From: Minisyncoccota bacterium
Lineage (GTDB): Bacteria; Patescibacteriota; Minisyncoccia; Phycocordibacterales; VMEP01
DNA length: 55,662 nucleotides
NCBI GenBank assembly: GCA_041659085.1
Contig: JBAZYZ010000002.1
Location: forward strand, 1 to 55,662
Direction of reading: 5' to 3'
In this document: piece after piece, positions 15,291 to 48,244 of the stretch
How the letters are laid out: each line of letters starts with the position of its first letter
Numbering within the stretch: position 1 is the stretch's first letter
The notes under the pieces: model-generated
Told to the model about the DNA's origin: nothing
Databases searched by the model: none
What the model saw: only the letters and a program-made list of their open reading frames with translations
Translations under genes and position numbers: made by a program

Positions 15291-15317
15291 AAAACGTGCT
15301 TTGGGCAGCACGTTTTT
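15291..15317 (+). terminator. Intrinsic terminator after tRNA-Leu
   Basis: aaaaCGTGCTttgggcAGCACGttttt. Confidence 0.75.
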
Positions 15318-15410
15318 AGTTTTATAGGACGGAGCACGCCGGCGCGAGTCGGGGTGCGCATAAAGCTGCGCTTTGAATGGCACGTTTTTTGTTTTACAAT
15401 ACAGTCACGT

Positions 15411-16696: not shown

Positions 16697-16716
16697 ATTT
16701 TGCTAATATATCAGAT

Positions 16717-17352
16717 ATGAATAAGCTTGCCGAACTCAAAAAATTGGAAGAGGAAATCATTGCGGACACAAGCCTGCCGCTTAATACAAACCTTGTGTTC
16801 GGCGAAGGGAGCGATAACGCCGAAATACTTTTTATCGGTGAGGCGCCCGGAGCGGAAGAAGACAAACAAAGAAGACCTTTTGTCGGCCGGTCGGGGCAGT
16901 TGCTCAGGAAAAACATCAGGGATATTGGGCTCAAAGAAGAAGATGTTTTTATTACGAACATCGTCAAACGCCGCCCCCCGGACAACCGAGACCCGAGCCC
17001 GGAGGAGATTGAGAGTTATAAGCCGTATTTGGCGAGACAGATTGAAATAATAAATCCGAAAGTTATAGTCACTCTCGGCCGTTTCTCGATGAATTACTTT
17101 TTGCCGATGGCTAAGATTACCCGCGACCAAGGAAGACTGTTTCCGTTTGGAGAAAGATTCGTTTATCCGGTCCTGCATCCCGCAGCCGCGCTTCGGGGGA
17201 ATGAGATGATGAAGATGTTCACTGACAGCTTCAGGCGTTTACCGGCTGCGGTCAAGAAATGCGATGAATTTACCGGGGGAGATAAAAAGGCGCCGCAAGC
17301 AAAGTCTGCGGCGCAAAAAGAAAAAATACCCGAACAAACAGGGCTTTTTTAG
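16717..17352 (+). CDS. Uracil-DNA glycosylase, family 4
   Basis: 211 aa. GEGSDNAEILFIGEAPGAEEDKQRRPFVGRSGQLL and HPAAALR motifs. Lys-rich C-terminal tail. Confidence 0.88.
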   Translation: MNKLAELKKLEEEIIADTSLPLNTNLVFGEGSDNAEILFIGEAPGAEEDKQRRPFVGRSGQLLRKNIRDIGLKEEDVFITNIVKRRPPDNRDPSPEEIESYKPYLARQIEIINPKVIVTLGRFSMNYFLPMAKITRDQGRLFPFGERFVYPVLHPAAALRGNEMMKMFTDSFRRLPAAVKKCDEFTGGDKKAPQAKSAAQKEKIPEQTGLF

Positions 17353-17371
17353 GGCGTGTTACAATAAGGTT

Positions 17372-17923
17372 ATGCTTTACACAAGGAAGGGAGACGCGGG
17401 GACAACCGGGACGTTCGGCTGCGACCAAAGGATATCCAAGAGTTCGGCGATAGCCGAAGCGCTCGGCGCATTAGACGAGATAAACTCGCTCCTTGGGATA
17501 TGTAAAGTGAAAACTAACGGTTTGCAGCTGACAGCTAGTAACAGAAATGCGGGAGAGGTGGTGGGTGAAGTTCAACAGAACCTTTTTATCATCCAAGCGG
17601 AGATGGCGGGAGCCGAGAAGACGATTATGAAAGAAAAAGTTGAAGCGATAGAAAAAATAATTGACGATATGGAAAAAGAGCTGCCGCCCATTACGACATT
17701 TTTTGTTTCCGGAGGGACGGAGCTCGCGTCGACATTTGATTTTGCCCGCACGCTTGCGCGCCGGGCTGAGAGACGGGTTGTTCAAGTGTCTGAAGAGGGG
17801 GATAGGAAAGTCGGCGGGCACACGCTTGCGTACCTGAACCGCCTTTCAAGCCTGCTTTATGCTCTGGCTCGTTACGCTAACCACAAAACGGGGATAGAAG
17901 AAGAAAAGCCGAGTTATAAATAA
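17372..17923 (+). CDS. ATP:cob(I)alamin adenosyltransferase, PduO type
   Basis: ATG at 17372 gives MLYTRKGDAGTTGTFG.... Helical bundle ending RTLARRAERR. Confidence 0.85.
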   Translation: MLYTRKGDAGTTGTFGCDQRISKSSAIAEALGALDEINSLLGICKVKTNGLQLTASNRNAGEVVGEVQQNLFIIQAEMAGAEKTIMKEKVEAIEKIIDDMEKELPPITTFFVSGGTELASTFDFARTLARRAERRVVQVSEEGDRKVGGHTLAYLNRLSSLLYALARYANHKTGIEEEKPSYK

Positions 17924-17950
17924 TCCGCGCAAGACAAATTCGTGTTTTTA

Positions 17951-17957
17951 TTGTAGG
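17951..17957 (+). repeat. TTGTAGG motif upstream of tRNA-His
   Basis: tttttaTTGTAGGTTATtaactgttggcagttaatttatat precedes the tRNA. It shares ATTGTAGGTTAT with the tRNA-Val upstream region. Confidence 0.5.
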
Positions 17958-17985
17958 TTATTAACTGTTGGCAGTTAATTTATAT

Positions 17986-18061
17986 GGTGCCTATAGTGTA
18001 ATGGTTAGCACTAGAGATTGTGGATCTCTCAGTCTGGGTTCAAATCCCAGTAGGCACCCCA
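17986..18061 (+). tRNA. tRNA-His (anticodon GUG) with encoded G-1 and CCA
   Basis: G-1 followed by GTGCCTA/TAGGCAC acceptor, anticodon stem AGAGA/TCTCT with loop ttGTGga, T arm CTGGG-TTCAAAT-CCCAG, discriminator C, then CCA. Confidence 0.88.
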
Positions 18062-34005: not shown

Positions 34006-36417
34006 TTACTTGGTGAAGGCAACATAAAAAAGCGAAAGGTTGCCTAGCGGGTACCCTAATGTTTCGCTGTATTTTGTCGCGATATAATTTAATAGATTTA
34101 TATCTTCCTTTTGCTTGCCTATTGAGTGATTCATAAACACGGCCGTAGCATGGACCTTGTCGCCCATCACGTTTGCCTGAAAGTATGCCAGATAGTCTCC
34201 CTGCGGGTCCATTTTGCCCGCTTTGTACTCGGTTAGAATCGGGTTGTTATGCATTACGCCTTTTTCTTTGAGGTAGGAAACCGCTTTTTCAATCGTGTTT
34301 ACACCTTCCATATTCTCCAGCCGGCCGAGAATTGGGTTATTCGGGCGGGAAGTTATTTTTTGGAGCGGAAGGAAGCAATAGGCAACACCAGTTTCGTTTG
34401 CTTTAGGAACCTTGGCGTTTTCCGCTAACTGATGCGGTCCGCTCTTTGAATCAATTTCATCCGCCGGTTTGGATGGCTCACCCATTAATTTTTTAGTCCG
34501 CTGCTCTTCGGTCAAAAGAAGTATGTTTGCCCGGCTTGAAAGCATATACATGTCCCCCGGTTTCGCGTGAAGCTCGTCCCTCACCGTAGAAACATAAGCG
34601 TCATATAGGCCGAAGACATTTTCCGGATAAGCGTTCACTGTATTGTGGGCGCGGGCGATGTGGAATGAATGCAGGCGCCCGTCCTCTAGGAAAAAGATGT
34701 CGTGAGTTAGGCACGGGTCGTGCGTGTATTTTGTTTTGCCGGTATCGGGGTCAACATAACTTTTCATATCTTCCACCGGGTCAAAACGCTGTATGATTGC
34801 CGCGCGGTTCGGATTTTCGCGGAGGACAAGCGCGGTTTTCGGCAGCTGGTCAAAGCCGAAGAAAACACGCGTCCGTTCGCCGTAGCTATAATCTCCGTCG
34901 TGGTCAAAGCGGAGCAGTTGGGCTTTGTAGGCGCTCCGTATCTCTTCCGTGCTCCGTTCTCCCTGCTTATACAAGGCTGGGAGGGAAGACAGGGACTTCT
35001 CCGTGTTGCGGTAGATTGCGAGCATTACGGCGGAGCGGGCCAATCCTTTTTGCTTGTCTCCATGCTCTTCGGTCAATCCCTGGGTGTATATTTTCATAAG
35101 GACTTGTTTGTGGACGTCTAAGAAATTATCTCCGTCGGCTATAAGCAAGGGCAGATTTTCCGTATTGATTTTGAAAATGTTCGCGAAATCCTGGATGAAC
35201 GCATAATCAAGCGAGGCGGCGATGGCGGCCCGCCCGATTTGCCCGCCGATGTCCAGCCTGTGCAGGATATCCATCTCGTAGTTTTCAAAGCGGTTTTTCT
35301 CAGCTATCCATTCAAAGAGTCCGCCGATTTTCGGGGAGCGGAGTTCAAAGACCTGTTCGCAGACATCAAAGGCCAGGCACATTACCGCCACCTGACCCGC
35401 TTTAACATTTATTTTGTAGTAATATTTCTTGTCGGTGATAAGGGAAATTTTTGATTCAAGCATTATTTCTTTTTCCCCGGCAATATTTCCGGATTTTACG
35501 AAAGAAGGGAATTTAATTTCGTTTTTTATTTCTGAACTTACCCGGGCAAGCTCGGCTCCGAGATATAGCTGGTCCAGTTGGCTGATTTCTTTTTTGCGTT
35601 CGCCCAGGAATTTCATCAGAGAATATTCCAAGAGGAAATCATCCGTGCTTTTTATGAAAAATGTTTCTTCTCCCAACTTGATATCAAGGCGCAATACTCC
35701 TTTTTCATTTTGTACCCGGAAAGTAACTTCGGGGATTATCTCTTTTGCCGGGATGGCTACTTTTGGCGGCTGGAGGTGCTGGAATTCTTTCGGGTCAAGC
35801 TCAACAACGCCGCGTTTTGCGGGTTCAGAGGCTCCAAGCAGCGAGACGAGTTTGTTAAGCGAGTCGTAATATATCTTTCCTTTTTCGTTCACTTCTTTTA
35901 AGAATTCATATACTTCGTCCGGCAGTCTGGGGCGCGCCCATAGAAGATAGTCCATAATGATTTTCTTGCCGTAATCATTTCTGTACATGAACATCGGCAG
36001 AACGGTTATATTTTCTCGGAAAGAATCTACGATTTCGCCGGAAAGGTTCGGATAATGCGACGAGGCGGCTCTGCCGTTTACTATGGGGTGGTCACGGTCT
36101 TCTGTGTTTACTCCATACTGGAGCGCCAGAAGCAGGTTTGTGCTCGGAGAGAATGTCAGCGATTCCTCGGAGAAGAGTATGAGATATGCGAGTGTCGGGT
36201 GAGAGAGCGAATTGAGTATCATTCTCTCGGCCCCGTCCCGGCTCACAATGAGCGAGCCTAAGACTGAGACGAAGCGGCGCTCTTTGCCTTCAAGCTCGTT
36301 TAAGACTTGGCCGGGGGCGGTGGTGTTGGTGCATATGCCTATAAAACCATCCTTGCCTTCGGGGGGGGTGAGAAGTATCGCGTCCACTATGGGGAATTGG
36401 GGGGTTTTTGCGGTCAT
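34006..36417 (-). CDS. Multidomain protein with a thymidylate-synthase/dCMP-hydroxymethylase-fold catalytic core (803 aa)
   Basis: ATG at 36415-36417 (MTAKTPQFPIV...) lies 16 nt after the upstream stop; the track ORF start at 36498 overlaps the upstream gene. ThyA-like motifs are YSYGERTR, NPNRAAIIQRFDP, DPCLTHDIFFLEDGRLHSFHIARAHN, YPEN and GDMYMLSS. Confidence 0.7.
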   Translation of the reverse strand: MTAKTPQFPIVDAILLTPPEGKDGFIGICTNTTAPGQVLNELEGKERRFVSVLGSLIVSRDGAERMILNSLSHPTLAYLILFSEESLTFSPSTNLLLALQYGVNTEDRDHPIVNGRAASSHYPNLSGEIVDSFRENITVLPMFMYRNDYGKKIIMDYLLWARPRLPDEVYEFLKEVNEKGKIYYDSLNKLVSLLGASEPAKRGVVELDPKEFQHLQPPKVAIPAKEIIPEVTFRVQNEKGVLRLDIKLGEETFFIKSTDDFLLEYSLMKFLGERKKEISQLDQLYLGAELARVSSEIKNEIKFPSFVKSGNIAGEKEIMLESKISLITDKKYYYKINVKAGQVAVMCLAFDVCEQVFELRSPKIGGLFEWIAEKNRFENYEMDILHRLDIGGQIGRAAIAASLDYAFIQDFANIFKINTENLPLLIADGDNFLDVHKQVLMKIYTQGLTEEHGDKQKGLARSAVMLAIYRNTEKSLSSLPALYKQGERSTEEIRSAYKAQLLRFDHDGDYSYGERTRVFFGFDQLPKTALVLRENPNRAAIIQRFDPVEDMKSYVDPDTGKTKYTHDPCLTHDIFFLEDGRLHSFHIARAHNTVNAYPENVFGLYDAYVSTVRDELHAKPGDMYMLSSRANILLLTEEQRTKKLMGEPSKPADEIDSKSGPHQLAENAKVPKANETGVAYCFLPLQKITSRPNNPILGRLENMEGVNTIEKAVSYLKEKGVMHNNPILTEYKAGKMDPQGDYLAYFQANVMGDKVHATAVFMNHSIGKQKEDINLLNYIATKYSETLGYPLGNLSLFYVAFTK
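34504..35136 (-). other. ThyA-fold domain within the 803-aa protein (catalytic Cys codon at 34711-34713)
   Basis: Motif-by-motif correspondence to E. coli ThyA, detailed in the findings. The Cys codon was verified on the sequence (gca on plus = TGC on minus, in the context D-P-C-L-T-H). Confidence 0.6.
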
Positions 36418-36433
36418 ATTTTTGACATGAGTT

Positions 36434-37318
36434 CTACCATTTTTTACTGGACCATTGGTTAGGCAGCAGTTCATCCAAAGTATATTGTTTGAATTCATCG
36501 GTATCTTTGGCGAAACAGTACAGATTTATGCTCAAATCGTATTTGGAACTTATTTCAGCCAAAAACTGTCGGCAACATCCGCATATTTCACAGGGTGTGT
36601 CGGTAAATTTAGTGGACACCAAACCGAGCGCGACAATTTTTGTCTTTCCGTCCATAAGGGCGAGAATTGGCGCTGCCATTTCGCTGTGTATGCCGCCACG
36701 TTTTTCAAAACTGGAATATTGTCCAGAATAATATATTACGCTGTCTTCCGTAAGCACTGCCGTACTGTAAGCACTGGCGTTGTTGTAGGTATGGAAGCAT
36801 TTGCCCAGACCCTCCACGGCGTATTTTTTTAGCTGGTCCGGTACCGGAATACTGGTTTGAAATGGCGCCTTAGATTCCGATGGGACGGCCCCCTTCACTT
36901 TCTCCAAGATATTTTGATGTGGCTTATAAAAAGGAATTATTTCGGTTACTTTTGGCACCGAAAATATTTCCTTCCCGTCAATATTTACGACCCGATATTT
37001 TATTTCTCCACCCGTGCGGACGCAAAAATCAATCATGGTTTTTACCGTAAACGGATTTACTATGAATCCTTCATCTTTTTCAACCAATGTTACGACTTCT
37101 TCCACCAGGTAGTCGCTGTGGGCTACCGCCAAAAGAAGGGCGGACTGTTCCGAAGAAATATTTAGTAGGTTAGTGTCGGAGTCAATGTTTGCTCCGCGGT
37201 ATTTTCGGCCGCTTTTTGAATAAGCTACAGTGGATGTCCTGCTGCCTACCCCAACCACTGTCTTTTTAGCAACGGCTAGCGCAAGCCCGTCTTTTAAATA
37301 AGATAGTTCATCAACCAT
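36434..37318 (-). CDS. Tandem cytidine/deoxycytidylate-deaminase-fold protein (degenerate N-terminal domain, catalytic C-terminal domain)
   Basis: 294 aa. The C-terminal domain has HSE (H211, E213) and PCEIC (C243, C246) zinc and catalytic motifs, followed by GCCRQF. The N-terminal domain keeps only SSEQSA and has no PCxxC. Confidence 0.75.
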   Translation of the reverse strand: MVDELSYLKDGLALAVAKKTVVGVGSRTSTVAYSKSGRKYRGANIDSDTNLLNISSEQSALLLAVAHSDYLVEEVVTLVEKDEGFIVNPFTVKTMIDFCVRTGGEIKYRVVNIDGKEIFSVPKVTEIIPFYKPHQNILEKVKGAVPSESKAPFQTSIPVPDQLKKYAVEGLGKCFHTYNNASAYSTAVLTEDSVIYYSGQYSSFEKRGGIHSEMAAPILALMDGKTKIVALGLVSTKFTDTPCEICGCCRQFLAEISSKYDLSINLYCFAKDTDEFKQYTLDELLPNQWSSKKW

Positions 37319-37319
37319 A

Positions 37320-38213
37320 TTATAGATTGCTTCTTAGTTTGCTGACGCTCAGCTGAGCCACTTCCCAATCATAATGAAGGGTTTTTTTGATGAAGTCATT
37401 CAAGAGGTGGATCTTGTCTCTTTCAAGACGGGGATACATCTTCTCCGATTTCTTGCTGGTTAATCTGATAGTGGGAACGAAAGATACGGGGAAAGCGTAA
37501 TACGGCAGAAGCGGATGCCTTTCCGATTCGGGCTCTACCAGTATGGCGGTGATGGGTTTACCTAGTTTTTCTATGGCGTAATCAATGCGGTGCGCTCCGT
37601 CGCAGACGATGTAGAAGTCTTGCTTGCCGGTGTATCTTAGCCCGTAGTTTATAATCGGCGCGTTTGAATTGAAGACATCCAGATAATCAAGTTTGCTGAC
37701 TTCGTCAATGTAGAATGAATTCAGGAATCTTTTTGAAAGATTGTGCAGGTTATTGCGCGCGTCGGCTGTATACGTATCCGCGAATCGCTTGCTTATTTTA
37801 TCAAGGTCAAGATACCCCGCCCTCAGTTCATAGGTATGTTTCTCAATAATAGGCGGCAATATGTGGAAATCACCGCGCCCCTCCCAATTATATTGCAACC
37901 CGTTTTTCAAATCGTTTATCCGCATTTTGTGCGCGCGGAGAAACTTATCCACGGTATCAAAAACTTCCAGCTGATTTTCATATATTGTCGGTTGGGGGGT
38001 AAAGAGGTTGTGTCTTTTGTCGTCAACGGCTATTTTGGGCGATTGCCCTATTTTCTGGGGTGGATGTATTGTGACTAATTTGAATTTCGCTTTTGCGTAT
38101 GGTTTTAGCGCCGTGCCCTTCTTGTCAAAGAGCCCACGGAAGGCTACTTTCCGCATCATGGACGTAAGTTGGTCAAAGGGAATGACTCCTTTCAAGACTA
38201 GCTTTTCTTTCAT
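37320..38213 (-). CDS. ParB/sulfiredoxin-fold domain protein
   Basis: 297 aa. FYIVCDGAHRIDYAIEKLG carries DGxHR, with codons 37587-37601 verified on the sequence. Its stop is 1 nt from the next gene's start. Confidence 0.6.
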   Translation of the reverse strand: MKEKLVLKGVIPFDQLTSMMRKVAFRGLFDKKGTALKPYAKAKFKLVTIHPPQKIGQSPKIAVDDKRHNLFTPQPTIYENQLEVFDTVDKFLRAHKMRINDLKNGLQYNWEGRGDFHILPPIIEKHTYELRAGYLDLDKISKRFADTYTADARNNLHNLSKRFLNSFYIDEVSKLDYLDVFNSNAPIINYGLRYTGKQDFYIVCDGAHRIDYAIEKLGKPITAILVEPESERHPLLPYYAFPVSFVPTIRLTSKKSEKMYPRLERDKIHLLNDFIKKTLHYDWEVAQLSVSKLRSNL

Positions 38214-39957: not shown

Positions 39958-41574
39958 ATGATAAGTGATTTTTTACGTGGAGAAATAGAAACTGTACTCA
40001 AGGGCCTTTCTCCTGCCCCCGAAACAAAGAAGTTGAAAGGCTTGAATATAAAATTGGGTGAAAGTTTTGGGGATTACACTACAAATGCCGCTATAATTCT
40101 TTCTACAGACATGATTGTTTACTCAAGTGTCGTTAAAAATCCAAGAGAGGTAGCGGAGCAAATAATCGCTGAGCTTTCAAAAAACGAAAAAATATGGAAA
40201 TTATTTTCCAAACCAAAAATGGAAATTGCTGGTCCGGGATTTATAAACTTTTATTTGTCGGATGAAGCGCTGGTAGATGAGTTGAAAGTTGTAAGGGAAA
40301 GAGTAGGAAGTGGCTTTGATTTCTTGCGCGCCCAAAAAATAAATCTGGAGTTTATTTCCGCGAATCCGACAGGCGAACTTCACATCGGCCACGGCCGCGG
40401 GGCTTTTTACGGCGACGCTCTTTCCAATATTTTTTCTTTTTCCGGGGCCAAAATTACGCGAGAGTATTATATAAATGATTCAAAAGACAGCAATCAGATA
40501 GTAGAGCTCGGCAAAACGGCGCTTGGCTTGGGTGAGCAGTATAAAACTTTCAAACTGCTTGAAATAATTAAGGAAATGGATTTTAGCGGCATGGAGCCGA
40601 AAGAGGCGGGGGCTTTGCTTGCGAGTAAGGTTCAGGAATATAATCGGAATTTTATTGAAGGCAAGCTCGGCGTCAAGTTTGATGAATGGTTTTCCGAAAA
40701 TTCTCTTTATGAAAGCGGGAGGGTGGAGAAGACCGTTAAGATTTTGACTGACAAAAAACTGCTTCATAAAAAAGAGGGCGAGGGCGAAGCCCTGTGGCTT
40801 CCGACGAGCGAATATGGGGATGACGAAGACAGGGTCGTGGTGCGTTCCGACGGCACTTATACTTATTTCCTCTCCGACATTGCGTACCACGGTGACAAAT
40901 TCAGTCGCGGATACGACAAGGTGATAGACATTTGGGGTGCCGACCATCACGGGCACGTGAAGCGTATACAAGCGGCCAAGGAAATACTCGGCTGGAAGGG
41001 AGAACTTAAGGTATTTATAACCCAGTTGGTGTCGCTCAAAGAGAATGGAGTTTCAGCCAAGATGTCCAAGCGGGCGGGCAATGTGGTTCTGCTTGAAGAT
41101 TTGGTGGATGAATTCGGGATTGACGTGGTGCGTTGGTTTTTCTCGGATAAGTCGCTTAGCACTCATATGGACTTTGATATGGTTCTCGCCAAAGAACATT
41201 CGGCCAAGAACCCGGTCTTTTACGTGCAGTATGCTCACGCGCGTATTTGTTCAATCCTGGAAAAGGCGAAAGGTGTAACACCGGACGGAAGCGGGCTCCC
41301 GGATATTATGAAAGAACCGGCTGCCCGGGCGCTTGCGGTAAAAATATCCGAATTCCCGGAAATTGTTTTCTCCATAGCGAATGATTACCAGGTCCATAAA
41401 CTTACCACTTATGCTTATGAACTGGCTTCGTCATTCGCGCAGTTTTATGAGAAGGTGCGTATTGTGGAAGACGGTGGATATAACCAAGGGGCGCTTCTGC
41501 TCGCGGAAATTGCCAGAAATACGCTTGCGAAATCTCTGGAATTACTGGGAATCTCCGCTCCGGAGAGTATGTAG
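39958..41574 (+). CDS. argS: Arginine--tRNA ligase
   Basis: 538 aa. SANPTGELHIGHGR (HIGH), MSKRAGN (KMSK-like), C-terminal DALR anticodon-binding domain. Confidence 0.93.
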   Translation: MISDFLRGEIETVLKGLSPAPETKKLKGLNIKLGESFGDYTTNAAIILSTDMIVYSSVVKNPREVAEQIIAELSKNEKIWKLFSKPKMEIAGPGFINFYLSDEALVDELKVVRERVGSGFDFLRAQKINLEFISANPTGELHIGHGRGAFYGDALSNIFSFSGAKITREYYINDSKDSNQIVELGKTALGLGEQYKTFKLLEIIKEMDFSGMEPKEAGALLASKVQEYNRNFIEGKLGVKFDEWFSENSLYESGRVEKTVKILTDKKLLHKKEGEGEALWLPTSEYGDDEDRVVVRSDGTYTYFLSDIAYHGDKFSRGYDKVIDIWGADHHGHVKRIQAAKEILGWKGELKVFITQLVSLKENGVSAKMSKRAGNVVLLEDLVDEFGIDVVRWFFSDKSLSTHMDFDMVLAKEHSAKNPVFYVQYAHARICSILEKAKGVTPDGSGLPDIMKEPAARALAVKISEFPEIVFSIANDYQVHKLTTYAYELASSFAQFYEKVRIVEDGGYNQGALLLAEIARNTLAKSLELLGISAPESM

Positions 41575-41592: not shown

Positions 41593-44500
41593 ATGGAAGA
41601 AAAGCATAAAGAGAAGAATTCACGGGAAGTAAAAAAATCAGAAGTGGCGCTTGCGGAAGAGCGCATTTTGGCCAATTGGCAAAAAAAAGGGATACATCAA
41701 AAAATTATGGATAAAACCCGTGAGGGGAAGCCGTTTGTTTTTTATGATGGACCGCCTTTTGCCACCGGCGAGCCGCATTACGGGCATGTTCTGGCGGGGA
41801 CCATTAAGGATACAATCCCAAGGTATCGGACCATGATGGGGCATTATGTAAGGCGGCAGTGGGGTTGGGATTGTCATGGTTTGCCGCTTGAAAACATAAT
41901 TGAAAAAGAGCTAAAGCTTGAGCACAAGAAAGACATTGAGGAATATGGCATAGAAAATTTCAACGAAGCGGCGCGTAAAGCGGTTCTACGCTTTGATTCA
42001 AACTGGAAAGAAATAATTCCCCGGATGGGGCGGATGGTGGATATGGACTTGTCGTATAAGACGATGGACGCCACTTATAGCGAATCAATCTGGTGGGCTT
42101 TTAAGACGCTTTACGACAAAGGCTTGATATATGAGGGGCATAAAATAATGTACGTTTGCCCGAGGTGCGAAACGCCTCTCGCTCAGATTGAGGTCGCTCA
42201 GGGTTATAAAGACGTGACTGACATATCCGTTACTGTGAAGTTTGAATTGTCCGCCGATCCGGGGGTTTACCTGCTCGCTTGGACCACGACGCCGTGGACA
42301 TTGCCCGGGAATACGGCGCTTGCTGTTAATCCCGACATTGAGTACGTGAAAGTAAGGGTTGACGGGGAATACTATATTTTGGCCAAGGACCGTCTTTTAA
42401 TACTGAATACCGAATACGAGATACTGAGCACCTTCCATGGACGCGAACTCGTTGGCAAATCATATATTCCTCCGTTTGATTATTATGTGAATGATAACGA
42501 AATTGAAAACCACAACAGAGGTTGGAAAATTTACGGCGCGGATTTCGTAACCGCGGACAGCGGCACCGGCATCGCCCACGAAGCTCCGGCTTTCGGCGCT
42601 GAGGATATGGAGCTCTCAAAAAAGGAAAATATTCCGGTCATTCAGCATGTCTCCATGGACGGCAAGTTTAAACCGGAGGTGAAGGATTTCGCGGGACAAT
42701 ACGTGAAGCAGAAAGGGGACACCCAATCAGCAGACATAGAAGTAATAAAATATTTGGCGCATAAAGGCTTACTGTTCAGCAAAGAAAAAATTGTTCACTC
42801 GTATCCCTTGTGCTGGAGATGCGACACTCCGCTTCTAAACTACGCCACTCCGTCTTGGTTTGTGAAGACGACGGCTATAAGCGATAGAGTAGTTTCAGAA
42901 AATAAGAAAGTTGGCTGGATCCCGGAGCATATAGGCGGTGGACGCTTTGGCAAATGGCTTGAGAACCCGCGCGACTGGGCGATTTCCCGTTCCAGGTTCT
43001 GGGGTGCTCCGCTTCCCATATGGAAATGCGCCGAATGCGAAAAAGTCGACGCTTTCGGAAGCGTGGCTGAGCTTTCGGAGAAGGTTCCCCCGTCCGGTAA
43101 TCGCTATATCGTTATCCGGCACGGTCAGTCTGAAAGCAATGCTTTGGGCATGGTCAACTGTGACCCATTCAAGGAGGACCATGTGACGGACAAAGGCAGA
43201 GGGCAGGTAGAAGAGGCGGCAGAACAGTTAAAAAAGGATGGGATAAAAATAGACAGGATCATCTCGTCGGATTTTATGCGTACCCGCGAAACCGCGGAGA
43301 TGGTTGCCGAAATACTTGACGTTCCCGCCGAACACATTGTTTTTGACCCGCGGTTCCGCGAGATAAACACAGGTATCTTCCACGACAAAACTCGCGCCGA
43401 ATATCATGATTTCTTCGTTTCATACGCCGAAAAATTTAAAAAGACGCCGAAGGGAGGAGAAAATTTGCTTGATGTGAAGCGACGCGTTCTCCTGGGTGTC
43501 GGAGACCTTGAAAAAACTTATCGCGGCGAGACAATACTTATTGTCACTCACGAATATGCGGCTTGGATGCTCGCTTCTGCGGCTAAGGGCGCCACAATAG
43601 AGGAGTCTGTCCGGATGAAAAGCGAACGTGGGGAGGATTTTCTGGGGAATGCCGAAACAGAAGAACTAAAATGGAAGCTTATACCGAGGAACAGGGTGGG
43701 CGAGCTTGATTTGCACCGCCCGTATATAGACGAGATTGTTTACGACTGTTCCTGTGGCGGAACGATGAGGCGAATCCCCGACGTGTTTGACTGCTGGTTT
43801 GAGTCCGGTTCCATGCCCTATGCCCAGTTCCACTATCCGTTTGAGAACGAGAAGGAGTTCAGAAGGAATTTCCCGGCTGATTTTATCGCCGAAGGGATGG
43901 ACCAGACTCGCGGCTGGTTTTACAGCCTGCTGATTCTGGGTGTCGGGCTTTTCGGCGAGTCGCCATACAAAAATGTCATCGTAAACGGAATTATTCTCGC
44001 TGAAGACGGGCAGAAGATGTCCAAGCGCCTGAAGAATTATCCCGACCCGATTGAAGTGGTCAACAGATACGGGGCCGACTCCCTGCGCTACTTCCTTTTG
44101 TCGTCTCCTCTTATGCGTGGTGAGGACGTAAGCTTTTCGGAGAAAGGAGTGGATGAGGTCTATAAGAAAAATATCGCTCGTTTGAATAATGTTTATGCTT
44201 TTTATGAACTCTATCGCGGAGCGGAAGAGGGGAATGCGGATTCAAAAAATATTTTGGACAGATGGATTTTGGCAAGACTGAGTCAGATGATTAACGAAAC
44301 AACCTCCGCGCTGGATTCATATGAGCTCGACAGGGCTACAAAGCCAATCGGCGAATTTATAGACGACCTTTCCACGTGGTATATACGGCGTTCACGCGAA
44401 CGGTTCAAGGGGGATGACGAGGCGGATAAAAAATCCGCGCTTGAGACGACAAATTACACGCTTATGGAACTTTCAAAAGTCGTCGCGCCGTTTATGCCGT

Positions 44501-45057
44501 TTATCGCCGACGACTTGTATCTGAAAGTGGCTGGCGGCAAAAAAGAGGAGAGTGTGCATCTAGAGAAGTGGCCGGAAGCGAAGGAATTAAATGATGAAAG
44601 CAGGGAAATAATAGAGGAAATGAGAAAAGCTCGAGAGGTTGTTTCATTGGGACTGGAAGAGCGTGCTAAGCATGGAATTAAAGTACGGCAACCCCTTCGC
44701 ATGTTAAGTACAACAGCTGCTTTTTCTGACGGGTATAATATTATTATTGGGGAGGAGCTCAATGTTAAAGAGGTCAAGTGGGACAAGAATCTGCCTACCA
44801 TTCTCGCACTTGATGTTGAAATTACTCAGGAACTCAAAGAAGAGGGCAACGTGCGCGACATAATCCGCGCCATTCAGGAATTCAGGAAGAATGAGGGACT
44901 TACTCCAAATGATAAAGTGGCCATTGAAATTTCCGCGCCCAAAGAAACAATCGCGCTTGTTGAAAAACACGGAGGGGAACTTAAAAAAGCCGCCATGCTT
45001 ACGGGCATAGAGGTCAAAACAGGAAAAGAGATTTCTTTTGTTGTCTTGAGAAAATGA
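41593..45057 (+). CDS. ileS: Isoleucine--tRNA ligase (type 2) carrying an inserted histidine-phosphatase domain
   Basis: 1154 aa. PPFATGEPHYGHVLAG (HIGH), CP1 editing domain TTPWTLPGN, KMSKRLKN. About 200 extra aa lie between PIWKCAEC and DLHRPYID. Confidence 0.93.
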   Translation: MEEKHKEKNSREVKKSEVALAEERILANWQKKGIHQKIMDKTREGKPFVFYDGPPFATGEPHYGHVLAGTIKDTIPRYRTMMGHYVRRQWGWDCHGLPLENIIEKELKLEHKKDIEEYGIENFNEAARKAVLRFDSNWKEIIPRMGRMVDMDLSYKTMDATYSESIWWAFKTLYDKGLIYEGHKIMYVCPRCETPLAQIEVAQGYKDVTDISVTVKFELSADPGVYLLAWTTTPWTLPGNTALAVNPDIEYVKVRVDGEYYILAKDRLLILNTEYEILSTFHGRELVGKSYIPPFDYYVNDNEIENHNRGWKIYGADFVTADSGTGIAHEAPAFGAEDMELSKKENIPVIQHVSMDGKFKPEVKDFAGQYVKQKGDTQSADIEVIKYLAHKGLLFSKEKIVHSYPLCWRCDTPLLNYATPSWFVKTTAISDRVVSENKKVGWIPEHIGGGRFGKWLENPRDWAISRSRFWGAPLPIWKCAECEKVDAFGSVAELSEKVPPSGNRYIVIRHGQSESNALGMVNCDPFKEDHVTDKGRGQVEEAAEQLKKDGIKIDRIISSDFMRTRETAEMVAEILDVPAEHIVFDPRFREINTGIFHDKTRAEYHDFFVSYAEKFKKTPKGGENLLDVKRRVLLGVGDLEKTYRGETILIVTHEYAAWMLASAAKGATIEESVRMKSERGEDFLGNAETEELKWKLIPRNRVGELDLHRPYIDEIVYDCSCGGTMRRIPDVFDCWFESGSMPYAQFHYPFENEKEFRRNFPADFIAEGMDQTRGWFYSLLILGVGLFGESPYKNVIVNGIILAEDGQKMSKRLKNYPDPIEVVNRYGADSLRYFLLSSPLMRGEDVSFSEKGVDEVYKKNIARLNNVYAFYELYRGAEEGNADSKNILDRWILARLSQMINETTSALDSYELDRATKPIGEFIDDLSTWYIRRSRERFKGDDEADKKSALETTNYTLMELSKVVAPFMPFIADDLYLKVAGGKKEESVHLEKWPEAKELNDESREIIEEMRKAREVVSLGLEERAKHGIKVRQPLRMLSTTAAFSDGYNIIIGEELNVKEVKWDKNLPTILALDVEITQELKEEGNVRDIIRAIQEFRKNEGLTPNDKVAIEISAPKETIALVEKHGGELKKAAMLTGIEVKTGKEISFVVLRK
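43090..43700 (+). other. Histidine phosphatase (PGAM/CobC-like) domain inserted in IleRS
   Basis: RYIVIRHGQSESN (RHG codons 43117-43125, in frame). ...ISSDFMRTRETA... ILIVTHEYAAWML is the second catalytic His motif. Confidence 0.75.
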
Positions 45058-45632
45058 AAAAACGAGTATTTATAATACACGGGTGGGATGGTTATCCGGA
45101 AGAAGGATGTTTCCCTTGGCTGAAGAAAGAGTTGGAGAATAGGGGTTTCTCTGTTTTTAACCCAGCGATGCCGGAACCGTTAAATCCGCGGATAGAAACA
45201 TGGGTTCCGTTTCTGGCGAAGCAAGTGGGTGTTCCGGATCAAAATACTATTTTACTCGGGCATTCCATAGGTGCTCAGACAGTACTGAGATACCTGGAAT
45301 CTTTTGGTGGAAATGCAAAAGTTGGCGGAGTTGTGCTTTTAGCGGGATGGGTCCATCTTACCGACGAAGCGTATGAGGATAAAGAGGACTTAAACATTGC
45401 CTTGCCCTGGCTTGAAAAAGCAATAAACTGGGATAAGGTAAGACCTTGTGCCGGTAAATTTGTCGGTATATTCTCTGACAATGATGAATTAGTACCACTG
45501 ACAGACTCAGAAATTTTTAGGGAAAAACTGGGTGCTCAGATCATAATTGAGCACAACAAAGGCCATTTTAGCGGAGAAGACGGGGTTACTGAATTACCCT
45601 CCGCCCTCCAAGCGATTTTGGATTTTAACTGA
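45054..45632 (+). CDS. Alpha/beta hydrolase, YdeN/RBBP9-like serine hydrolase
   Basis: 192 aa. FIIHGWDGYPEEGCFPWLKKEL. Nucleophile elbow GHSIG. ATGA overlap with the ileS stop. Confidence 0.75.
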   Translation: MKKRVFIIHGWDGYPEEGCFPWLKKELENRGFSVFNPAMPEPLNPRIETWVPFLAKQVGVPDQNTILLGHSIGAQTVLRYLESFGGNAKVGGVVLLAGWVHLTDEAYEDKEDLNIALPWLEKAINWDKVRPCAGKFVGIFSDNDELVPLTDSEIFREKLGAQIIIEHNKGHFSGEDGVTELPSALQAILDFN

Positions 45633-45644
45633 GACTTTAATATA

Positions 45645-46223
45645 ATGTCTCACTTTATCTATCGAACAGAAGCAATAATTTTGGGTGAGATGCCTAGTGG
45701 AGAAGATAATCGGCTGTATTTTTTGTTGACCGACGAACTTGGTTTCGTTATGGCCCAGGCCACCGGGGTGCGGCTTTTGAAATCCAAACTGCGTTTTCAT
45801 CTGTCGCTTTTTGCCAATGTGGACGTGGAGATGGTTCGCGGAAAAAATATCTGGCGAATTGTTAACGTTTACGGCAGGGAATCAAAAGTTTTTTTCAGAA
45901 CTCCCCACGCGGTTGTTTTTGCGCGTCTATCGGGGCTTGTCCGCCGCCTTGTTCATGGCGAGGAAGATAATAAAAAGCTTTTTAACGAAGTAAAGGGTGC
46001 TCGCGCGGTGTTGTCAGAAAATAATTTATCCCCGGAAGAGGAAGCAAATCTTGAGCTTGTGTCGGTGGCAAGGATTTTGGAAACACTCGGTTATTTCAGC
46101 GCCGGTAGATATGAGCCGATTTTGGCGGGTGCAATGAGCCGCGACACAGCTTCCATGGTCATTCCATTCCGCCGCGAGCTTACAAGGGATATAAACGAAG
46201 CGCTTAAGGAGAGCCAACTTTAA
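45645..46223 (+). CDS. recO: DNA repair protein RecO (short form)
   Basis: 192 aa. YRTEAIILGEMPSGEDNRLYFLLTDELGFV.AQA.G.R..KSKLR OB-fold start. Confidence 0.75.
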   Translation: MSHFIYRTEAIILGEMPSGEDNRLYFLLTDELGFVMAQATGVRLLKSKLRFHLSLFANVDVEMVRGKNIWRIVNVYGRESKVFFRTPHAVVFARLSGLVRRLVHGEEDNKKLFNEVKGARAVLSENNLSPEEEANLELVSVARILETLGYFSAGRYEPILAGAMSRDTASMVIPFRRELTRDINEALKESQL

Positions 46224-46279: not shown

Positions 46280-48244
46280 ATGCTTGACCACAACAGAAAG
46301 AATGGCAGTGATTCCATAGAAGAGCTAAAAAAGCGACTTTATGCGCGCGGTAGTATGGGCAGAAGGTCTCTCAGGAAGGGCGGGCTTGAAGAACACGAAG
46401 AAGATATCGGCAGTGAGTGGAAAAAAGACGCTTTAATCTATTCAAACGAGTCTGATGAACCCACCGAGGAAAAAATAAGAATGGGAACATTTAAAAAATT
46501 TTTTATAGCATCATCCATATTTTTTATGATGGCTTTGGCATACGCGGCCTACCAGTTTCTTGGCGGCGGAAATATCGTTTCGGCCAAAAATATAAATATA
46601 ACGGTATTCGGCCCGTCATTTGCCTCGGGAGGGGATGAGATTTCTCTGCAGGTTTCTGTTGAGAACCGCAACAATGTCCCGCTTGAATTTGCGGAAATTT
46701 TGATAGAGTACCCGAGAGGAGCAGCAAGCGCTAACGCTTCCTCCACTTTGGATTTAGTCAGAAAACAAATCACACTCAAGAAAATTCCCGCGGGTGGGAC
46801 TCATCAGGAGGTGGTTAAGGTTGTGCTATACGGAGAAGAGGGCGGGCAGCAAAACATAAAGTTTACATTGGAATACCGGACACAAGGTTCCAACGCGATT
46901 TTCCAAAAAGAAAGCATTTACCCGGTTAAAATAAGTTCTGCGCCCATTAATCTTTTTTTGGATTCTCCGAAAGAGGTTAACTCTGGGCAAAATCTTTCCC
47001 TTAGGATAAAAGTATCGTCAAATGCCCCCAAAGACGTGGCTGATGTTCTGCTGGGAGTTGATTACCCTCCTGGATTTTTGTTTAAGACATCCGATCCTGC
47101 GCCGACATACGGTAATAATGTCTGGCGTTTGGGAGATTTCCACACAGGAAGTGACAGGGCGATTTCCATAACAGGCGTTCTCTCCGGTGAAAACGGGGAA
47201 GATCGGACCTTTCGCCTGCTCACAGGCTCCGCTTCTGTGGACGATGAGAAGACTATTGGCGTAATTTATAATTCTGTTTTTCAGACAATTTCCATAAAAC
47301 GCGCGTTTTTGGATGCCGTGGTGTATCTGAACGGAGACTCCGCTCAAAAACAAAATATGGCTGTTCCTTCAGGTCGTGAGGTGGTCGGCTCTTTAGTGTG
47401 GCGTAATAATTTGCCGACACGAATAACTAACGCCGAAATAAGTTTGAAATTTTCCGGCAACGCCATTGACCGCAGCACCATCTCATCCCAAAACGGGTTT
47501 TACAATTCTTCGGAGGGCACGCTTGTATGGAACATGAATAACTACGGCAATTTCCAGGTAATTGAACCCGGGGAAACAGGCCAGTTCCCGTTTTATTTCA
47601 GACCGCTACCGCTCTACTCGTCCCAAAATGGCATGTTAAACGAGCCACAGGTGGTTATTGAAACGACGGTAAAGGGCAATGTCAACACAAGCAACGCCGG
47701 CGGAGGAGATGTTTCCGTCACCACAAGCAATGTTGCCAAAGTTTTGTCTGATTTGCAGGTTCTTTCGCGGGCTGCGTATTTTTCCGGCTCATTAAATAAT
47801 ACCGGGCCGATACCGCCGGTCGCGGAAAAGGAAACTACATACACAGTCTCTTGGAGCGTTATGAATTCGGCCAATGATGTTACCGGCGCTTCAATCACTA
47901 CAGTTTTGCCGCTGTATGTCGGCTGGGCTAACCAGGTTTCTTCCGCCAACGAAGATGTTTCTTATGACGTGACAAGCCGCAAGGTAACTTGGCGGTTGGG
48001 TACGGTGTCTTCCGGAACAGGATACGGAAGCGTCGCCCGCGAAGTGAGCTTTCAGGTCAGGCTTACTCCCTCCATCCAGCATGTCGGGAATTGGGTTAAC
48101 CTTACCGGAGACACGGTTCTTTCCGGAGTTGATTCATTTGCCAAAGAATCGATAGAGAGCGTTAAAAATCCGCTTACCACGATTTTAAGCAACGATTCCG
48201 GTTTCAGAACCGGCGATGAAATTGTAATGCCGCCGTCAAAATGA
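46280..48244 (+). CDS. Large membrane-anchored surface protein (repeated beta-sandwich-like modules)
   Basis: 654 aa. Charged N-terminus, one TM helix (FFIASSIFFMMALAYAAYQFL), then a Ser/Thr/Asn/Val-rich ectodomain. Coordinates are taken from the ORF track. Confidence 0.55.
   Translation: MLDHNRKNGSDSIEELKKRLYARGSMGRRSLRKGGLEEHEEDIGSEWKKDALIYSNESDEPTEEKIRMGTFKKFFIASSIFFMMALAYAAYQFLGGGNIVSAKNINITVFGPSFASGGDEISLQVSVENRNNVPLEFAEILIEYPRGAASANASSTLDLVRKQITLKKIPAGGTHQEVVKVVLYGEEGGQQNIKFTLEYRTQGSNAIFQKESIYPVKISSAPINLFLDSPKEVNSGQNLSLRIKVSSNAPKDVADVLLGVDYPPGFLFKTSDPAPTYGNNVWRLGDFHTGSDRAISITGVLSGENGEDRTFRLLTGSASVDDEKTIGVIYNSVFQTISIKRAFLDAVVYLNGDSAQKQNMAVPSGREVVGSLVWRNNLPTRITNAEISLKFSGNAIDRSTISSQNGFYNSSEGTLVWNMNNYGNFQVIEPGETGQFPFYFRPLPLYSSQNGMLNEPQVVIETTVKGNVNTSNAGGGDVSVTTSNVAKVLSDLQVLSRAAYFSGSLNNTGPIPPVAEKETTYTVSWSVMNSANDVTGASITTVLPLYVGWANQVSSANEDVSYDVTSRKVTWRLGTVSSGTGYGSVAREVSFQVRLTPSIQHVGNWVNLTGDTVLSGVDSFAKESIESVKNPLTTILSNDSGFRTGDEIVMPPSK

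What the first reader, a model, noticed from the sequence alone, without database searches (positions are those of the whole stretch)
43090..43700. Histidine-phosphatase (RHG) domain inserted into the catalytic body of isoleucyl-tRNA synthetase
A ~200-aa segment sits between the IleRS elements ...RFWGAPLPIWKCAECEKV... and ...GELDLHRPYIDEIVYDCSCGG...RRIPDVFDCWFESGSMPY. It reads NRYIVIRHGQSESN...ISSDFMRTRETAEMVA...ETILIVTHEYAAWML. This is the RHG motif (codons 43117-43125, in frame), the RxRET-like segment and the second catalytic His of the phosphoglycerate-mutase/CobC histidine-phosphatase superfamily.

In the type-2 IleRS sequences I know, these two elements are joined by a few dozen residues. 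At 1154 aa the protein is correspondingly oversized. The ORF is continuous, so this is a true in-frame insertion and not two genes.

A phosphatase embedded in an aaRS could act on aminoacyl-adenylate or AppppA by-products, on a nucleotide alarmone, or on a tRNA end. All of these are speculation.
Basis: partly seen in the sequence, partly recalled or inferred. Interest (0 to 1): 0.8.

Follow-up and report, generated by a model that had tools for sequence, protein, structure and literature searches.

The report
Phosphatase domain nested inside isoleucyl-tRNA synthetase
The enzyme that loads isoleucine onto tRNA in this tiny-genome (Patescibacteria) bacterium carries a complete, apparently active phosphatase domain spliced into a zinc hairpin beside its active site, and related lineages show the same pairing in other forms, which points to an undescribed link between tRNA charging and a dephosphorylation step.

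Summary
ORF 41593-45057 (1154 aa) is a complete type-2 IleRS (TIGR00392, 901 bits). A ~207-aa His_Phos_1 domain (PF00300, E 1.8e-28; residues 497-703, nt 43081-43701) replaces an 8-residue loop of solved IleRS2 structures. It sits at the tip of the zinc-knuckle hairpin of the CP3 subdomain.

It is not an assembly artefact. 78 related Patescibacteria genome loci have the same motif spacing. 79 of 79 inserts (window plus 78 loci) match PF00300, and all 120 best full-length homologues carry it. The catalytic residues R509, H510, R563, E590 and H653 are invariant or nearly so.

Other lineages pair the same two functions differently:
- In sister lineages a free-standing ~190-aa orthologue lies immediately upstream of an insert-free ileS, in the same synteny as the window.
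- Abawacabacteria, Peribacteria and Gracilibacteria IleRS carry the domain at a second site.
- Gracilibacteria/Peregrinibacteria-type ValRS carry one to about four copies, placed at the CP3-equivalent site in the one genome locus examined.

Most likely this is a bifunctional enzyme with an autonomous small-molecule-type phosphomonoesterase functionally tied to Ile (and Val) charging. The substrate is unknown. I found no description in the literature. Rated a new variant of a known kind, interest about 0.7.

The parts
41593..45057 (+). ileS: type-2 isoleucyl-tRNA synthetase with nested phosphatase domain, 1154 aa
   Evidence: Continuous ORF. TIGR00392 ileS scores 901 bits against a cut-off of 621. 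The AF2 model (pLDDT 88.6, pTM 0.80) matches IleRS2 8c8u with TMt 0.82.
41776..41787 (+). HIGH signature (HYGH, residues 62-65) of the synthetic site
   Evidence: H62, Y63, G64 and H65 are invariant in the 66-sequence alignment A2.
42280..42606 (+). CP1 editing-domain motifs WTTTPWTLPGN (230-240) and GTGIAHEAPAFGAED (324-338), intact
   Evidence: The residues are invariant or nearly invariant in A2. That these are the editing-site motifs rests on my own knowledge of class Ia enzymes.
42967..43005 (+). CP2-CP3 linker PRDWAISRSRFWG (459-471). In yeast IleRS this stretch lines the tRNA A76 / reveromycin pocket.
   Evidence: Homologous to ScIleRS 453-ARDWNVSRNRYWG-465 as described in PMC7955072.
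43027..43038 (+). First half of the CP3 zinc knuckle, C479-x-x-C482
   Evidence: Cys in 65 of 66 homologues at each position. Zn-binding CP3 is described for Thermus IleRS in PMC7191050.
43081..43701 (+). Nested histidine-phosphatase (His_Phos_1) domain, residues 497-703
   Evidence: PF00300 at residues 506-675, E 1.8e-28. The segment is absent from 8c8u and from the insert-free relatives L166 and L169. The insert-only AF2 model has pLDDT 95.7. Its best fold matches are the small phosphatases 6s2q, 4ij5, 1h2e and 4pz9.
43117..43125 (+). RHG motif: R509, nucleophile H510, G511
   Evidence: R and H are invariant in 79 inserts and in 66 full-length homologues.
43279..43281 (+). R563, second phosphate-pocket arginine
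   Evidence: Invariant. Aligns to the corresponding Arg of PhoE 1h2e.
43360..43362 (+). E590, general acid/base
   Evidence: Invariant in A1 and A2.
43549..43551 (+). H653, second catalytic histidine
   Evidence: Invariant in 79 inserts and present in 65 of 66 sequences in A2.
43747..43755 (+). Second half of the CP3 zinc knuckle, C719-x-C721
   Evidence: Cys in 65 of 66 and 64 of 66 homologues.
44014..44028 (+). KMSKR loop (808-812) of the synthetic site
   Evidence: K808, S810 and K811 are invariant.
39958..41574 (+). argS (arginyl-tRNA synthetase) directly upstream. It is the conserved synteny partner.
   Evidence: Pfam Arg_tRNA_synt_N, tRNA-synt_1d and DALR_1. The same order argS-(phosphatase)-ileS is seen in L166 and L169.
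45054..46223 (+). Downstream genes: a 192-aa Ser_hydrolase (its start overlaps the ileS stop) and a RecO_N protein. This synteny is shared with the split-gene loci.
   Evidence: Pfam PF06821 and PF11967. L166 and L169 have a small ORF and then RecO after ileS.

Best explanation
This is the housekeeping type-2 IleRS of a Parcubacteria/Paceibacteria-type Patescibacterium. A complete small histidine phosphatase of the PhoE/PspA/CobC kind is nested at the tip of the Zn-knuckle hairpin of its CP3 subdomain.

Shown:
- The IleRS parts are all intact (HIGH, KMSKR, editing motifs, Zn knuckle, anticodon-binding and type-2 C-terminal domains).
- The insert folds as an autonomous alpha/beta domain.
- Its five catalytic residues are conserved across more than 140 homologues that are only 30-70% identical.
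- The same phosphatase family is also paired with class Ia synthetases in three other ways: as a separate gene abutting ileS, at a second site in IleRS, and within ValRS.

Inferred:
- The domain is an active phosphomonoesterase. In the chemistry established for this superfamily, H510 attacks the phosphate held by R509, R563 and H653, E590 protonates the leaving group, and the phospho-histidine intermediate is then hydrolysed.
- Its function is tied to isoleucine (and valine) charging. CP3 is anchored at one end in the linker that lines the tRNA A76 pocket and at the other in the DxWFESG segment at the start of the second half of the Rossmann fold, so the phosphatase is tethered next to the synthetic site.
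- My leading guess for the substrate is a small anionic phosphorylated molecule, such as a nucleotide or nucleotide-like by-product or signal, and not tRNA or protein. The domain keeps a conserved lid with basic residues, its closest folds are small-molecule phosphatases, and most inserts are acidic. The actual substrate is not established.
For: Architecture.

Not an artefact and clade-wide:
- 78 of 80 related genome loci could be measured. They have 212-259 aa between the two flanking motifs, against 255 in the query.
- 79 of 79 inserts (window plus 78 loci) match PF00300.
- 120 of 120 best full-length hits carry PF00300.
- The exhaustive search finds 60 clusters at E<=1e-30, and 40 of the best 150 hits are >=1000 aa with the domain internal.

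Active-site conservation and selection:
- R509, H510, R563, E590 and H653 are invariant in alignment A1. In A2 they are present in 66, 66, 66, 66 and 65 of 66 sequences.
- The insert's mean pairwise identity is 47.8%. That is close to the 51.3% of the C-terminal tRNA-binding domains, against 67-70% for the catalytic core.

Fold: full-length model pLDDT 88.6 and pTM 0.80, with the insert region at 86-96. The insert-only model has pLDDT 95.7 and best matches small phosphatases.

Functional linkage (Rosetta-stone type evidence):
- Free-standing relatives P0110, P0105, P0132 and P0149 lie immediately upstream of an insert-free ileS in L166/L167, L169, L165, L168, L172 and L173. The synteny is argS-...-ileS-small ORF-recO, as in the window.
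- A second insertion site occurs in Abawacabacteria, Peribacteria and Gracilibacteria IleRS.
- In ValRS locus L161 two tandem copies sit at the CP3-equivalent site. 72 of its 120 best ValRS relatives carry PF00300.

Location in CP3 and next to the A76-pocket linker: PMC7191050 and PMC7955072.
Against: - No activity or substrate is known. The insert falls below the curated cut-off of every functional subfamily model: CobC 66 bits against 163, PspA 50 against 350, archaeal dPGM 67 against 225, SixA 40 against 74.5.
- In four of seven site-2 IleRS sequences (L082-L085) the first Arg and the second His are replaced, yet the domain is kept. Catalysis is therefore not always required for retention.
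- Gene adjacency and fusion can also arise from co-expression or neutral ratchets without any mechanistic coupling.
- CP loops of class Ia synthetases may simply tolerate insertions.
- The acidic pI (median 5.8, range 4.8-9.9) is only weak evidence against an RNA substrate.
Confidence: 0.5

Rival explanations
1. Safe-harbour or neutral fusion. An unrelated housekeeping small-molecule phosphatase happened to lie next to ileS. It became nested in a structurally permissive connective-peptide loop and is kept because the host gene is essential. The two activities do not interact.
For: - The insert is an autonomous, confidently folded domain, and the IleRS parts are unchanged.
- Connective-peptide regions are known insertion sites in class Ia enzymes (domain descriptions).
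- The domain is retained even where catalytic residues have decayed, as a constructive-neutral ratchet would predict.
- Two free-standing relatives are not next to ileS (L170, L171).
Against: - Pairing with class Ia synthetases recurs in at least four arrangements: an adjacent gene, IleRS CP3, the IleRS anticodon-domain loop, and ValRS, where copies sit at the CP3 site in L161. The embedded domains fall into separate clades.
- No other host protein appeared among the best 150 relatives of the insert: every fusion whose domains I checked there was an IleRS or ValRS.
- The adjacency to ileS is conserved between phosphatases that are only about 40% identical.
Confidence: 0.25
2. Macromolecular substrate. 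The domain could be a third catalytic site acting on the tRNA 3' end, removing a 3'-phosphate or 2',3'-cyclic phosphate before charging. Or it could be a protein phosphatase that reverses inhibitory phosphorylation of the synthetase, for example on the KMSKS loop by HipA-like kinases.
For: - CP3 is anchored in the linker that forms the A76 pocket.
- The known insertion sites flank the KMSKS-bearing segment in sequence.
- The top NCBIfam hit for the insert is the phosphatase half of the bifunctional RNase H/acid phosphatase family (NF005567), so there is a precedent for fusion to a nucleic-acid enzyme.
- From my own knowledge, the superfamily includes protein phosphatases (SixA, PGAM5, Sts-1).
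Against: - Most inserts are acidic (median pI 5.8).
- The domain keeps a lid region (short helices 601-606 and 611-616 before the long helix 625-642). From my own knowledge such a lid is typical of small-molecule members and is missing in SixA.
- The best fold matches are metabolite phosphatases.
- A generic tRNA-end repair function would not be expected only on IleRS and ValRS.
Confidence: 0.13
3. Non-catalytic module. The domain serves as a ligand sensor or as a structural or oligomerisation element, and the conserved pocket residues bind a phospho-ligand without turning it over.
For: - Site-2 domains in L082-L085 have lost two of the four phosphate-pocket residues but are retained at full length.
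- One ValRS copy has lost the Glu (L161 d2).
Against: - For the site-1 family, to which the window belongs, every catalytic residue is invariant across 79 and 66 sequences. This includes the general acid E590, which is not needed for binding alone.
- The free-standing relatives are also intact, with three showing E->D.
Confidence: 0.1
4. Assembly chimera or mis-join of two genes.
For: None beyond the prior possibility in metagenome assemblies. The exact protein is not on record elsewhere.
Against: - The same in-frame architecture occurs in 78 independent genome assemblies and in 120 of 120 best homologues, at 54-70% identity.
- Both junctions are conserved.
- There is no marked compositional break.
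Confidence: 0.01

Closest known systems
Type-2 isoleucyl-tRNA synthetase (IleRS2; e.g. Priestia megaterium 8c8u, Thermus thermophilus 1ILE, yeast and Candida cytoplasmic IleRS)
   Same: Full domain set and motifs: HIGH, KMSKR, CP1 editing site, Zn-binding CP3 as in Thermus, helical anticodon-binding domain and type-2 C-terminus (PF19302). Sequence E-value 1.7e-234 and fold TMt 0.78-0.85.
   Different: About 207 extra residues forming a histidine-phosphatase domain at the tip of the CP3 hairpin, where 8c8u has 8 residues. A 2026 survey of about 96,000 IleRS domain architectures never mentions a phosphatase.
Small branch-1 histidine phosphatases (PhoE/YhfR 1h2e, phosphoserine phosphatase PspA 4ij5, GpgP Rv2419c 4pz9, alpha-ribazole phosphatase CobC 6nru)
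   Same: Size of about 200 aa, alpha/beta fold, the RHG...R...E...H catalytic set, and a lid region.
   Different: Nested inside another enzyme. It scores below the curated cut-off of every functional subfamily, so its substrate cannot be transferred by homology.
Bifunctional RNase H / acid phosphatase (NCBIfam NF005567; Rv2228c/RnhC type)
   Same: A histidine-phosphatase domain fused to an enzyme that acts on nucleic acid. It is the best NCBIfam hit for the insert (E 1.3e-19). From my own knowledge, the natural phosphatase substrate is unknown there too.
   Different: That is an end-to-end fusion, not a nested insertion, and the partner enzyme differs. The score is far below the family cut-off (71 bits against 326).
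CP1 editing domain of class Ia synthetases
   Same: A catalytic hydrolase domain inserted into a connective peptide of the Rossmann fold, giving a second active site on the same polypeptide (domain layout).
   Different: CP1 is universal in IleRS, ValRS and LeuRS and hydrolyses mis-acylated tRNA. The present domain is lineage-specific, belongs to an unrelated fold and has phosphoryl-transfer chemistry.
IleRS with an N-acetyltransferase domain (NCBIfam NF040702, ileS_w_GNAT)
   Same: A curated precedent for an IleRS that carries an extra, unrelated catalytic domain (family listed).
   Different: A different added domain. I did not examine where it is placed. The query scores 319 bits against a cut-off of 1999, so it is not a member.

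Membership tests
Isoleucyl-tRNA synthetase (TIGR00392 ileS) | Scores above the curated equivalog cut-off over the whole protein | tested here: met
   901 bits against a cut-off of 621.4, matched in two stretches around the insert.
Isoleucyl-tRNA synthetase (TIGR00392 ileS) | Class I signature motifs HIGH and KMSKS | tested here: met
   HYGH at 62-65 and KMSKR at 808-812, conserved in 66 homologues.
Isoleucyl-tRNA synthetase (TIGR00392 ileS) | Aminoacylates tRNA-Ile and edits Val-tRNA-Ile | not testable with these tools
   The editing motifs are intact, but the activity needs biochemistry.
Type-2 IleRS (IleRS2) | Type-2 C-terminal organisation, and closest relatives among IleRS2, archaeal or eukaryotic enzymes rather than IleRS1 | tested here: met
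   PF19302 at residues 1071-1143. IleRS2 8c8u gives E 1.7e-234, against 6.7e-96 for IleRS1 8c9e. Fold TMt is 0.82 against 0.73.
Histidine phosphatase superfamily, branch 1 (PF00300) | Scores above the Pfam gathering threshold | tested here: met
   100 bits against 21.7, E 1.8e-28. 79 of 79 inserts (window plus 78 related loci) also match.
Histidine phosphatase superfamily, branch 1 (PF00300) | Catalytic set: RHG Arg and His, second Arg, Glu, second His | tested here: met
   R509, H510, R563, E590 and H653 are present and invariant or nearly invariant.
Histidine phosphatase superfamily, branch 1 (PF00300) | Alpha/beta fold of the superfamily | tested here: met
   The insert-only AF2 model has pLDDT 95.7. 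Foldseek gives probability 1.00 to 6s2q, 4ij5, 1h2e and 4pz9, with TM about 0.7-0.78.
Histidine phosphatase superfamily, branch 1 (PF00300) | Phosphatase or mutase activity through a phospho-histidine intermediate | not testable with these tools
   Needs an enzyme assay.
Cofactor-dependent phosphoglycerate mutase (TIGR01258 / NF038349) | Scores above the curated cut-off | tested here: not met
   pgm_1 scores 25.4 bits against 81.7, and dPGM_arch 66.9 against 225. Mutase structures rank below the small phosphatases in the fold search.
Alpha-ribazole phosphatase CobC (TIGR03162) | Scores above the curated cut-off | tested here: not met
   66.2 bits against 162.9.
Phosphoserine phosphatase PspA (NF045917) and phosphohistidine phosphatase SixA (TIGR00249) | Scores above the curated cut-off | tested here: not met
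   PspA scores 50.3 bits against 350. SixA scores 39.6 against 74.5 and matches only the N-terminal third.

The most novel reading that the evidence does not exclude
The nested phosphatase is a third catalytic site that takes part in the charging cycle itself. For example it might act on the tRNA 3' end, on an adenylate-derived by-product, or on a nucleotide alarmone in response to the Ile/Val charging state. That would give Patescibacteria a quality-control or regulatory step in translation that no other organisms are known to have. The step would have been recruited independently by IleRS (at two sites) and by ValRS.
Probability: 0.15. Interest if true: 0.9.

Novelty: new variant of a known kind. 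Interest (0 to 1): 0.7.

Why it matters
Aminoacyl-tRNA synthetases are among the most conserved and best-studied enzymes. New catalytic domains inside their cores are rare, and when found (CP1 editing, for example) they have revealed new steps in translation.

Here a whole branch of the ultra-small, host-dependent Patescibacteria carries an apparently active phosphatase inside IleRS. Sister lineages reach the same pairing by gene adjacency, by a second insertion site, and by multi-copy insertion into ValRS. That recurrence argues for a real and so far unknown biochemical link between branched-chain amino-acid charging and a dephosphorylation reaction.

The question is directly testable with recombinant protein. 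It also affects annotation: NCBI names many of these proteins only 'class I tRNA ligase family protein' or 'hypothetical protein'. And it is relevant wherever IleRS is used as a phylogenetic marker or drug target.

Tried and rejected
- **Word-indexed search with the insert alone.** It returned only one distant free-standing protein and wrongly suggested the insert was unique. The exhaustive HMMER search and the genome scan corrected this.
- **Exact-sequence look-up of the window protein.** Not on record.
- **Model coordinates.** They are not exposed to scripts, so I could not measure the distance or orientation between H510 and the synthetic or editing sites.
- **Structure prediction with alignment A1.** I rebuilt the alignment from search-derived sub-sequences.
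- **Genome scan with the alignment of free-standing phosphatases.** I used the single protein P0110 instead.
- **Other His_Phos genes near ileS.** A search of the window and the flanks of L001-L080 found none.
- **ValRS genes in the same flanks.** None found, so co-occurrence of IleRS and ValRS inserts in one genome is untested.
- **Recent mobile-element spread.** Rejected. The embedded copies are only 25-36% identical to each other and the tree is deep.
- **dPGM (glycolytic mutase) identity.** Rejected on curated cut-offs and fold ranking.
- **Literature.** Six searches found no prior description. One apparent lead (PMC6429109) was irrelevant.
Full report
**Observation.** The window holds one continuous ORF at 41593-45057 on the + strand (1154 aa, ATG to TGA). 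Pfam finds the class I synthetase catalytic domain split into two stretches, the anticodon-binding domain, the type-2 IleRS C-terminal domain PF19302, and His_Phos_1 (PF00300) at residues 506-675 with E 1.8e-28. NCBIfam calls the protein ileS (TIGR00392, 901 bits against a cut-off of 621). Against the solved type-2 IleRS of Priestia megaterium (8c8u), query residues 20-496 align to chain 12-476 and query 704-1101 to chain 485-890. About 207 residues therefore replace an 8-residue loop. The excised segment finds the phosphatases PhoE (1h2e/1ebb) and PspA (4ij5) in the PDB, with the catalytic residues aligned.

**Where exactly the insert sits.** The insert is bracketed by C479-x-x-C482 and C719-x-C721, which are Cys in 64-65 of 66 homologues. 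The Candida IleRS structure paper defines CP3 as residues 473-534 and notes that the Thermus CP3 carries a zinc-binding motif (PMC7191050). Query residue 496 aligns to about Candida residue 497. In yeast IleRS, CP3 is residues 459-526. The CP2-CP3 linker 453-ARDWNVSRNRYWG-465 forms part of the pocket where reveromycin A mimics the tRNA 3' end (PMC7955072), and the query equivalent is 459-PRDWAISRSRFWG-471. So the phosphatase hangs from the tip of the CP3 zinc hairpin. The base of that hairpin is anchored on one side in the A76-pocket linker and on the other in the DxWFESG segment at the start of the second half of the Rossmann fold. 'CP3 subdomain' is more accurate than 'catalytic body'.

**Not an artefact, and clade-wide.**
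- A scan of one genome per species returned 80 loci, all Patescibacteria-type MAGs at 43-57% identity. The names include Yonath-, Lloyd-, Kaiser-, Nomura-, Adler-, Wolfe-, Vogel-, Taylor- and Berkelbacteria.
- In 78 loci the distance between the two flanking IleRS motifs could be measured and is 212-259 aa, against 255 in the query.
- The window's insert and all 78 from those loci match PF00300 (79 of 79).
- All 120 best full-length database homologues (54-70% identical) carry PF00300 together with the IleRS domains. Their sources name them 'isoleucyl-tRNA synthetase', 'class I tRNA ligase family protein' or 'hypothetical protein'.
- An exhaustive HMMER search of 1.84 billion representatives with the insert gave 60 clusters at E<=1e-30. 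40 of the best 150 hits are proteins of >=1000 aa with the domain internal.
- There is no marked compositional break.

**Is the domain alive?**
- In 79 inserts that are 30-48% identical to the query, R509, H510, R563, E590 and H653 are invariant. In 66 full-length homologues they are present in 66, 66, 66, 66 and 65 sequences.
- The insert's mean pairwise identity (47.8%) is about that of the C-terminal tRNA-binding domains (51.3%), against 67-70% for the catalytic core. It is under purifying selection comparable to other functional parts.
- AlphaFold2 models the full protein with mean pLDDT 88.6 and pTM 0.80, with the insert region at 86-96. The model superposes on IleRS2 structures with TMt 0.78-0.85.
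- The insert alone gives pLDDT 95.7. It best matches the small (~200 aa) phosphatase members: mycobacterial hydrolase 6s2q, PspA, PhoE, GpgP and CobC. These rank ahead of the phosphoglycerate mutases.
- It is below the curated cut-off of every functional subfamily. It is therefore a member of the superfamily but of no characterised subfamily.

**Evidence that the pairing is functional.**
- *Adjacent gene.* Among the best relatives of the insert are free-standing proteins of 187-201 aa (P0110, P0105, P0132, P0149). They are as close to site-1 inserts (32.5% identity) as the inserts are to each other (33.2%), and they intermix with them in a tree. Of the six free-standing relatives looked up, four (P0110, P0105, P0132, P0149) lie immediately upstream of ileS. 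In L166/L167 the order is argS, phosphatase (6001-6570), ileS (6572-9367, 931 aa), a small ORF, then recO. In L169 it is argS, NUDIX, a 205-aa ORF, phosphatase, ileS (968 aa), a small ORF, then recO. In the short contigs L165 and L168 the next gene begins like IleRS. L172, labelled chromosome 1 of a 626-kb assembly and carrying a phosphatase identical to P0110, and L173 show the same arrangement. These IleRS align to query residues 22-494 and 706-1135, so they lack exactly the insert. The window has the same synteny: SHMT, argS, ileS, a 192-aa hydrolase, recO.
- *Second site in IleRS.* Abawacabacteria, Peribacteria and Gracilibacteria IleRS (P0151, L081-L085, L087) have an empty site 1. They carry the domain between the catalytic core and the anticodon-binding domain. 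Their nearest insert-free relatives are Firmicutes IleRS. P0108 and P0124 carry the domain at both sites.
- *ValRS.* L161 is a valine-tRNA ligase (NF004349, 882 bits against 704). It has two tandem His_Phos domains between WGHQIPVWY and DTLDTWFSS, the CP3-equivalent site. P0049 has four copies. 72 of the 120 best ValRS relatives carry PF00300, and their lengths imply one to about four copies.
- *Age of the copies.* The site-2 and ValRS domains form separate deep clades, and the tandem copies are only 30-36% identical. These are old, probably independent captures and not a recently spreading element.

**Complication.** In L082-L085 (site 2) the first Arg is Q or N and the second His is N or Q, yet the domain is kept at full length. 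One ValRS copy has lost the Glu. Retention therefore does not always need catalysis. This leaves room for a binding or structural role, or for a neutral ratchet. The site-1 family, to which the window belongs, shows no such decay.

**Mechanism.** What is shown: a complete IleRS plus an autonomous, conserved phosphatase domain tethered to CP3, and recurrent genomic pairing of this phosphatase family with IleRS and ValRS. What is inferred: the domain is an active phosphomonoesterase using the chemistry established for the superfamily (H510 nucleophile, an R509/R563/H653 pocket, E590 as acid/base), and it is functionally tied to Ile/Val charging. I favour a small anionic substrate for three reasons:
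- The domain keeps a conserved lid (helices 601-606 and 611-616, consensus EKFTKRPxGGE).
- Its nearest folds are metabolite phosphatases.
- Most inserts are acidic (median pI 5.8).

None of these is decisive.

**Comparison with what is known, and novelty.** The parts are known: IleRS2 and a PhoE/PspA/CobC-like phosphatase. The combination resembles CP1 in concept (a hydrolase nested in a connective peptide). It resembles the RNase H/acid-phosphatase fusion in partner type, and that family is also the best NCBIfam hit for the insert. I found no paper describing it in six searches. A February 2026 preprint that annotated domain architectures of 96,219 IleRS sequences contains no mention of a phosphatase, CPR or Patescibacteria. 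The sequences are in public databases with automatic Pfam hits, so the architecture is 'visible' but apparently uncharacterised. I rate it a new variant of a known kind.

**Verdict.** Confidence is very high for the architecture and its phylogenetic spread, good for an active phosphatase, moderate for functional coupling to charging, and low for any particular substrate. Interest 0.7.

Noticed in passing
L081-L085 and L087 (e.g. L081 ORF 2962-6843, domain at about aa 738-919); P0151 aa 733-899: Abawacabacteria, Peribacteria and Gracilibacteria IleRS carry the His_Phos domain at a different site, between the catalytic core and the anticodon-binding domain. The CP3 site is empty in them. P0108 and P0124 (1419 aa) carry the domain at both sites.
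   Followed up: yes
L082, L083, L084, L085 (site-2 domains): In these site-2 domains the first Arg of RHG is Q or N, and the second catalytic His is N or Q ('VQHTESEN...IVANGM', 'VNHPEAEN...IITQGP'). The domain is nevertheless retained at full length, so it is probably a pseudo-phosphatase. The Abawacabacteria versions (L081, L087, P0151) are intact.
   Followed up: partly
L161 ORF 3001-6873 (ValRS; domains at aa 533-725 and 718-896 of the stop-to-stop frame 2851-6873); P0049; hits P0272-P0372: Gracilibacteria/Peregrinibacteria-type valyl-tRNA synthetases carry His_Phos domains. 72 of the 120 best hits carry the domain, and their lengths imply one to about four copies. In L161 two tandem copies sit at the CP3-equivalent site. 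P0049 also has a copy at an additional upstream site.
   Followed up: partly
L166 6001-6570, L169 5001-5564, L172 and L173 4501-5067, L165 67-672, L168 81-668: Free-standing ~190-aa orthologues of the insert lie immediately upstream of an insert-free ileS, with gaps of 1 to about 50 nt or a short overlap, in the same argS...ileS...recO synteny as the window. In L169 a NUDIX hydrolase gene also lies between argS and ileS.
   Followed up: yes
L050, L060, L061 (IleRS inserts): These three inserts are about 35-40 aa shorter (motif spacing 212-218 against about 250). My HMM splits into two halves near the lid region, which suggests a deletion in the lid. They still match PF00300.
   Followed up: no
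window 45054-45632: The start codon of a 192-aa Ser_hydrolase (PF06821) gene overlaps the ileS stop codon (ATGA). A small ORF occupies the same position after ileS in L166 and L169, but has no Pfam hit there.
   Followed up: no
window 34006-38213 (- strand) and 46280-48244 (+): Four sizeable ORFs (829, 293, 296 and 654 aa) next to the synthetase cluster have no Pfam match at E<=0.001.
   Followed up: no
window 7124-18058: Seven tRNA genes are scattered over about 11 kb (Rfam RF00005). No rRNA or other Rfam family was detected in the window.
   Followed up: no
one search hit list (e.g. P0154, P0178, P0164): NCBI names many of these insert-bearing IleRS only 'class I tRNA ligase family protein' or 'hypothetical protein'. 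The insert may be what keeps them from receiving the specific isoleucine--tRNA ligase name.
   Followed up: no
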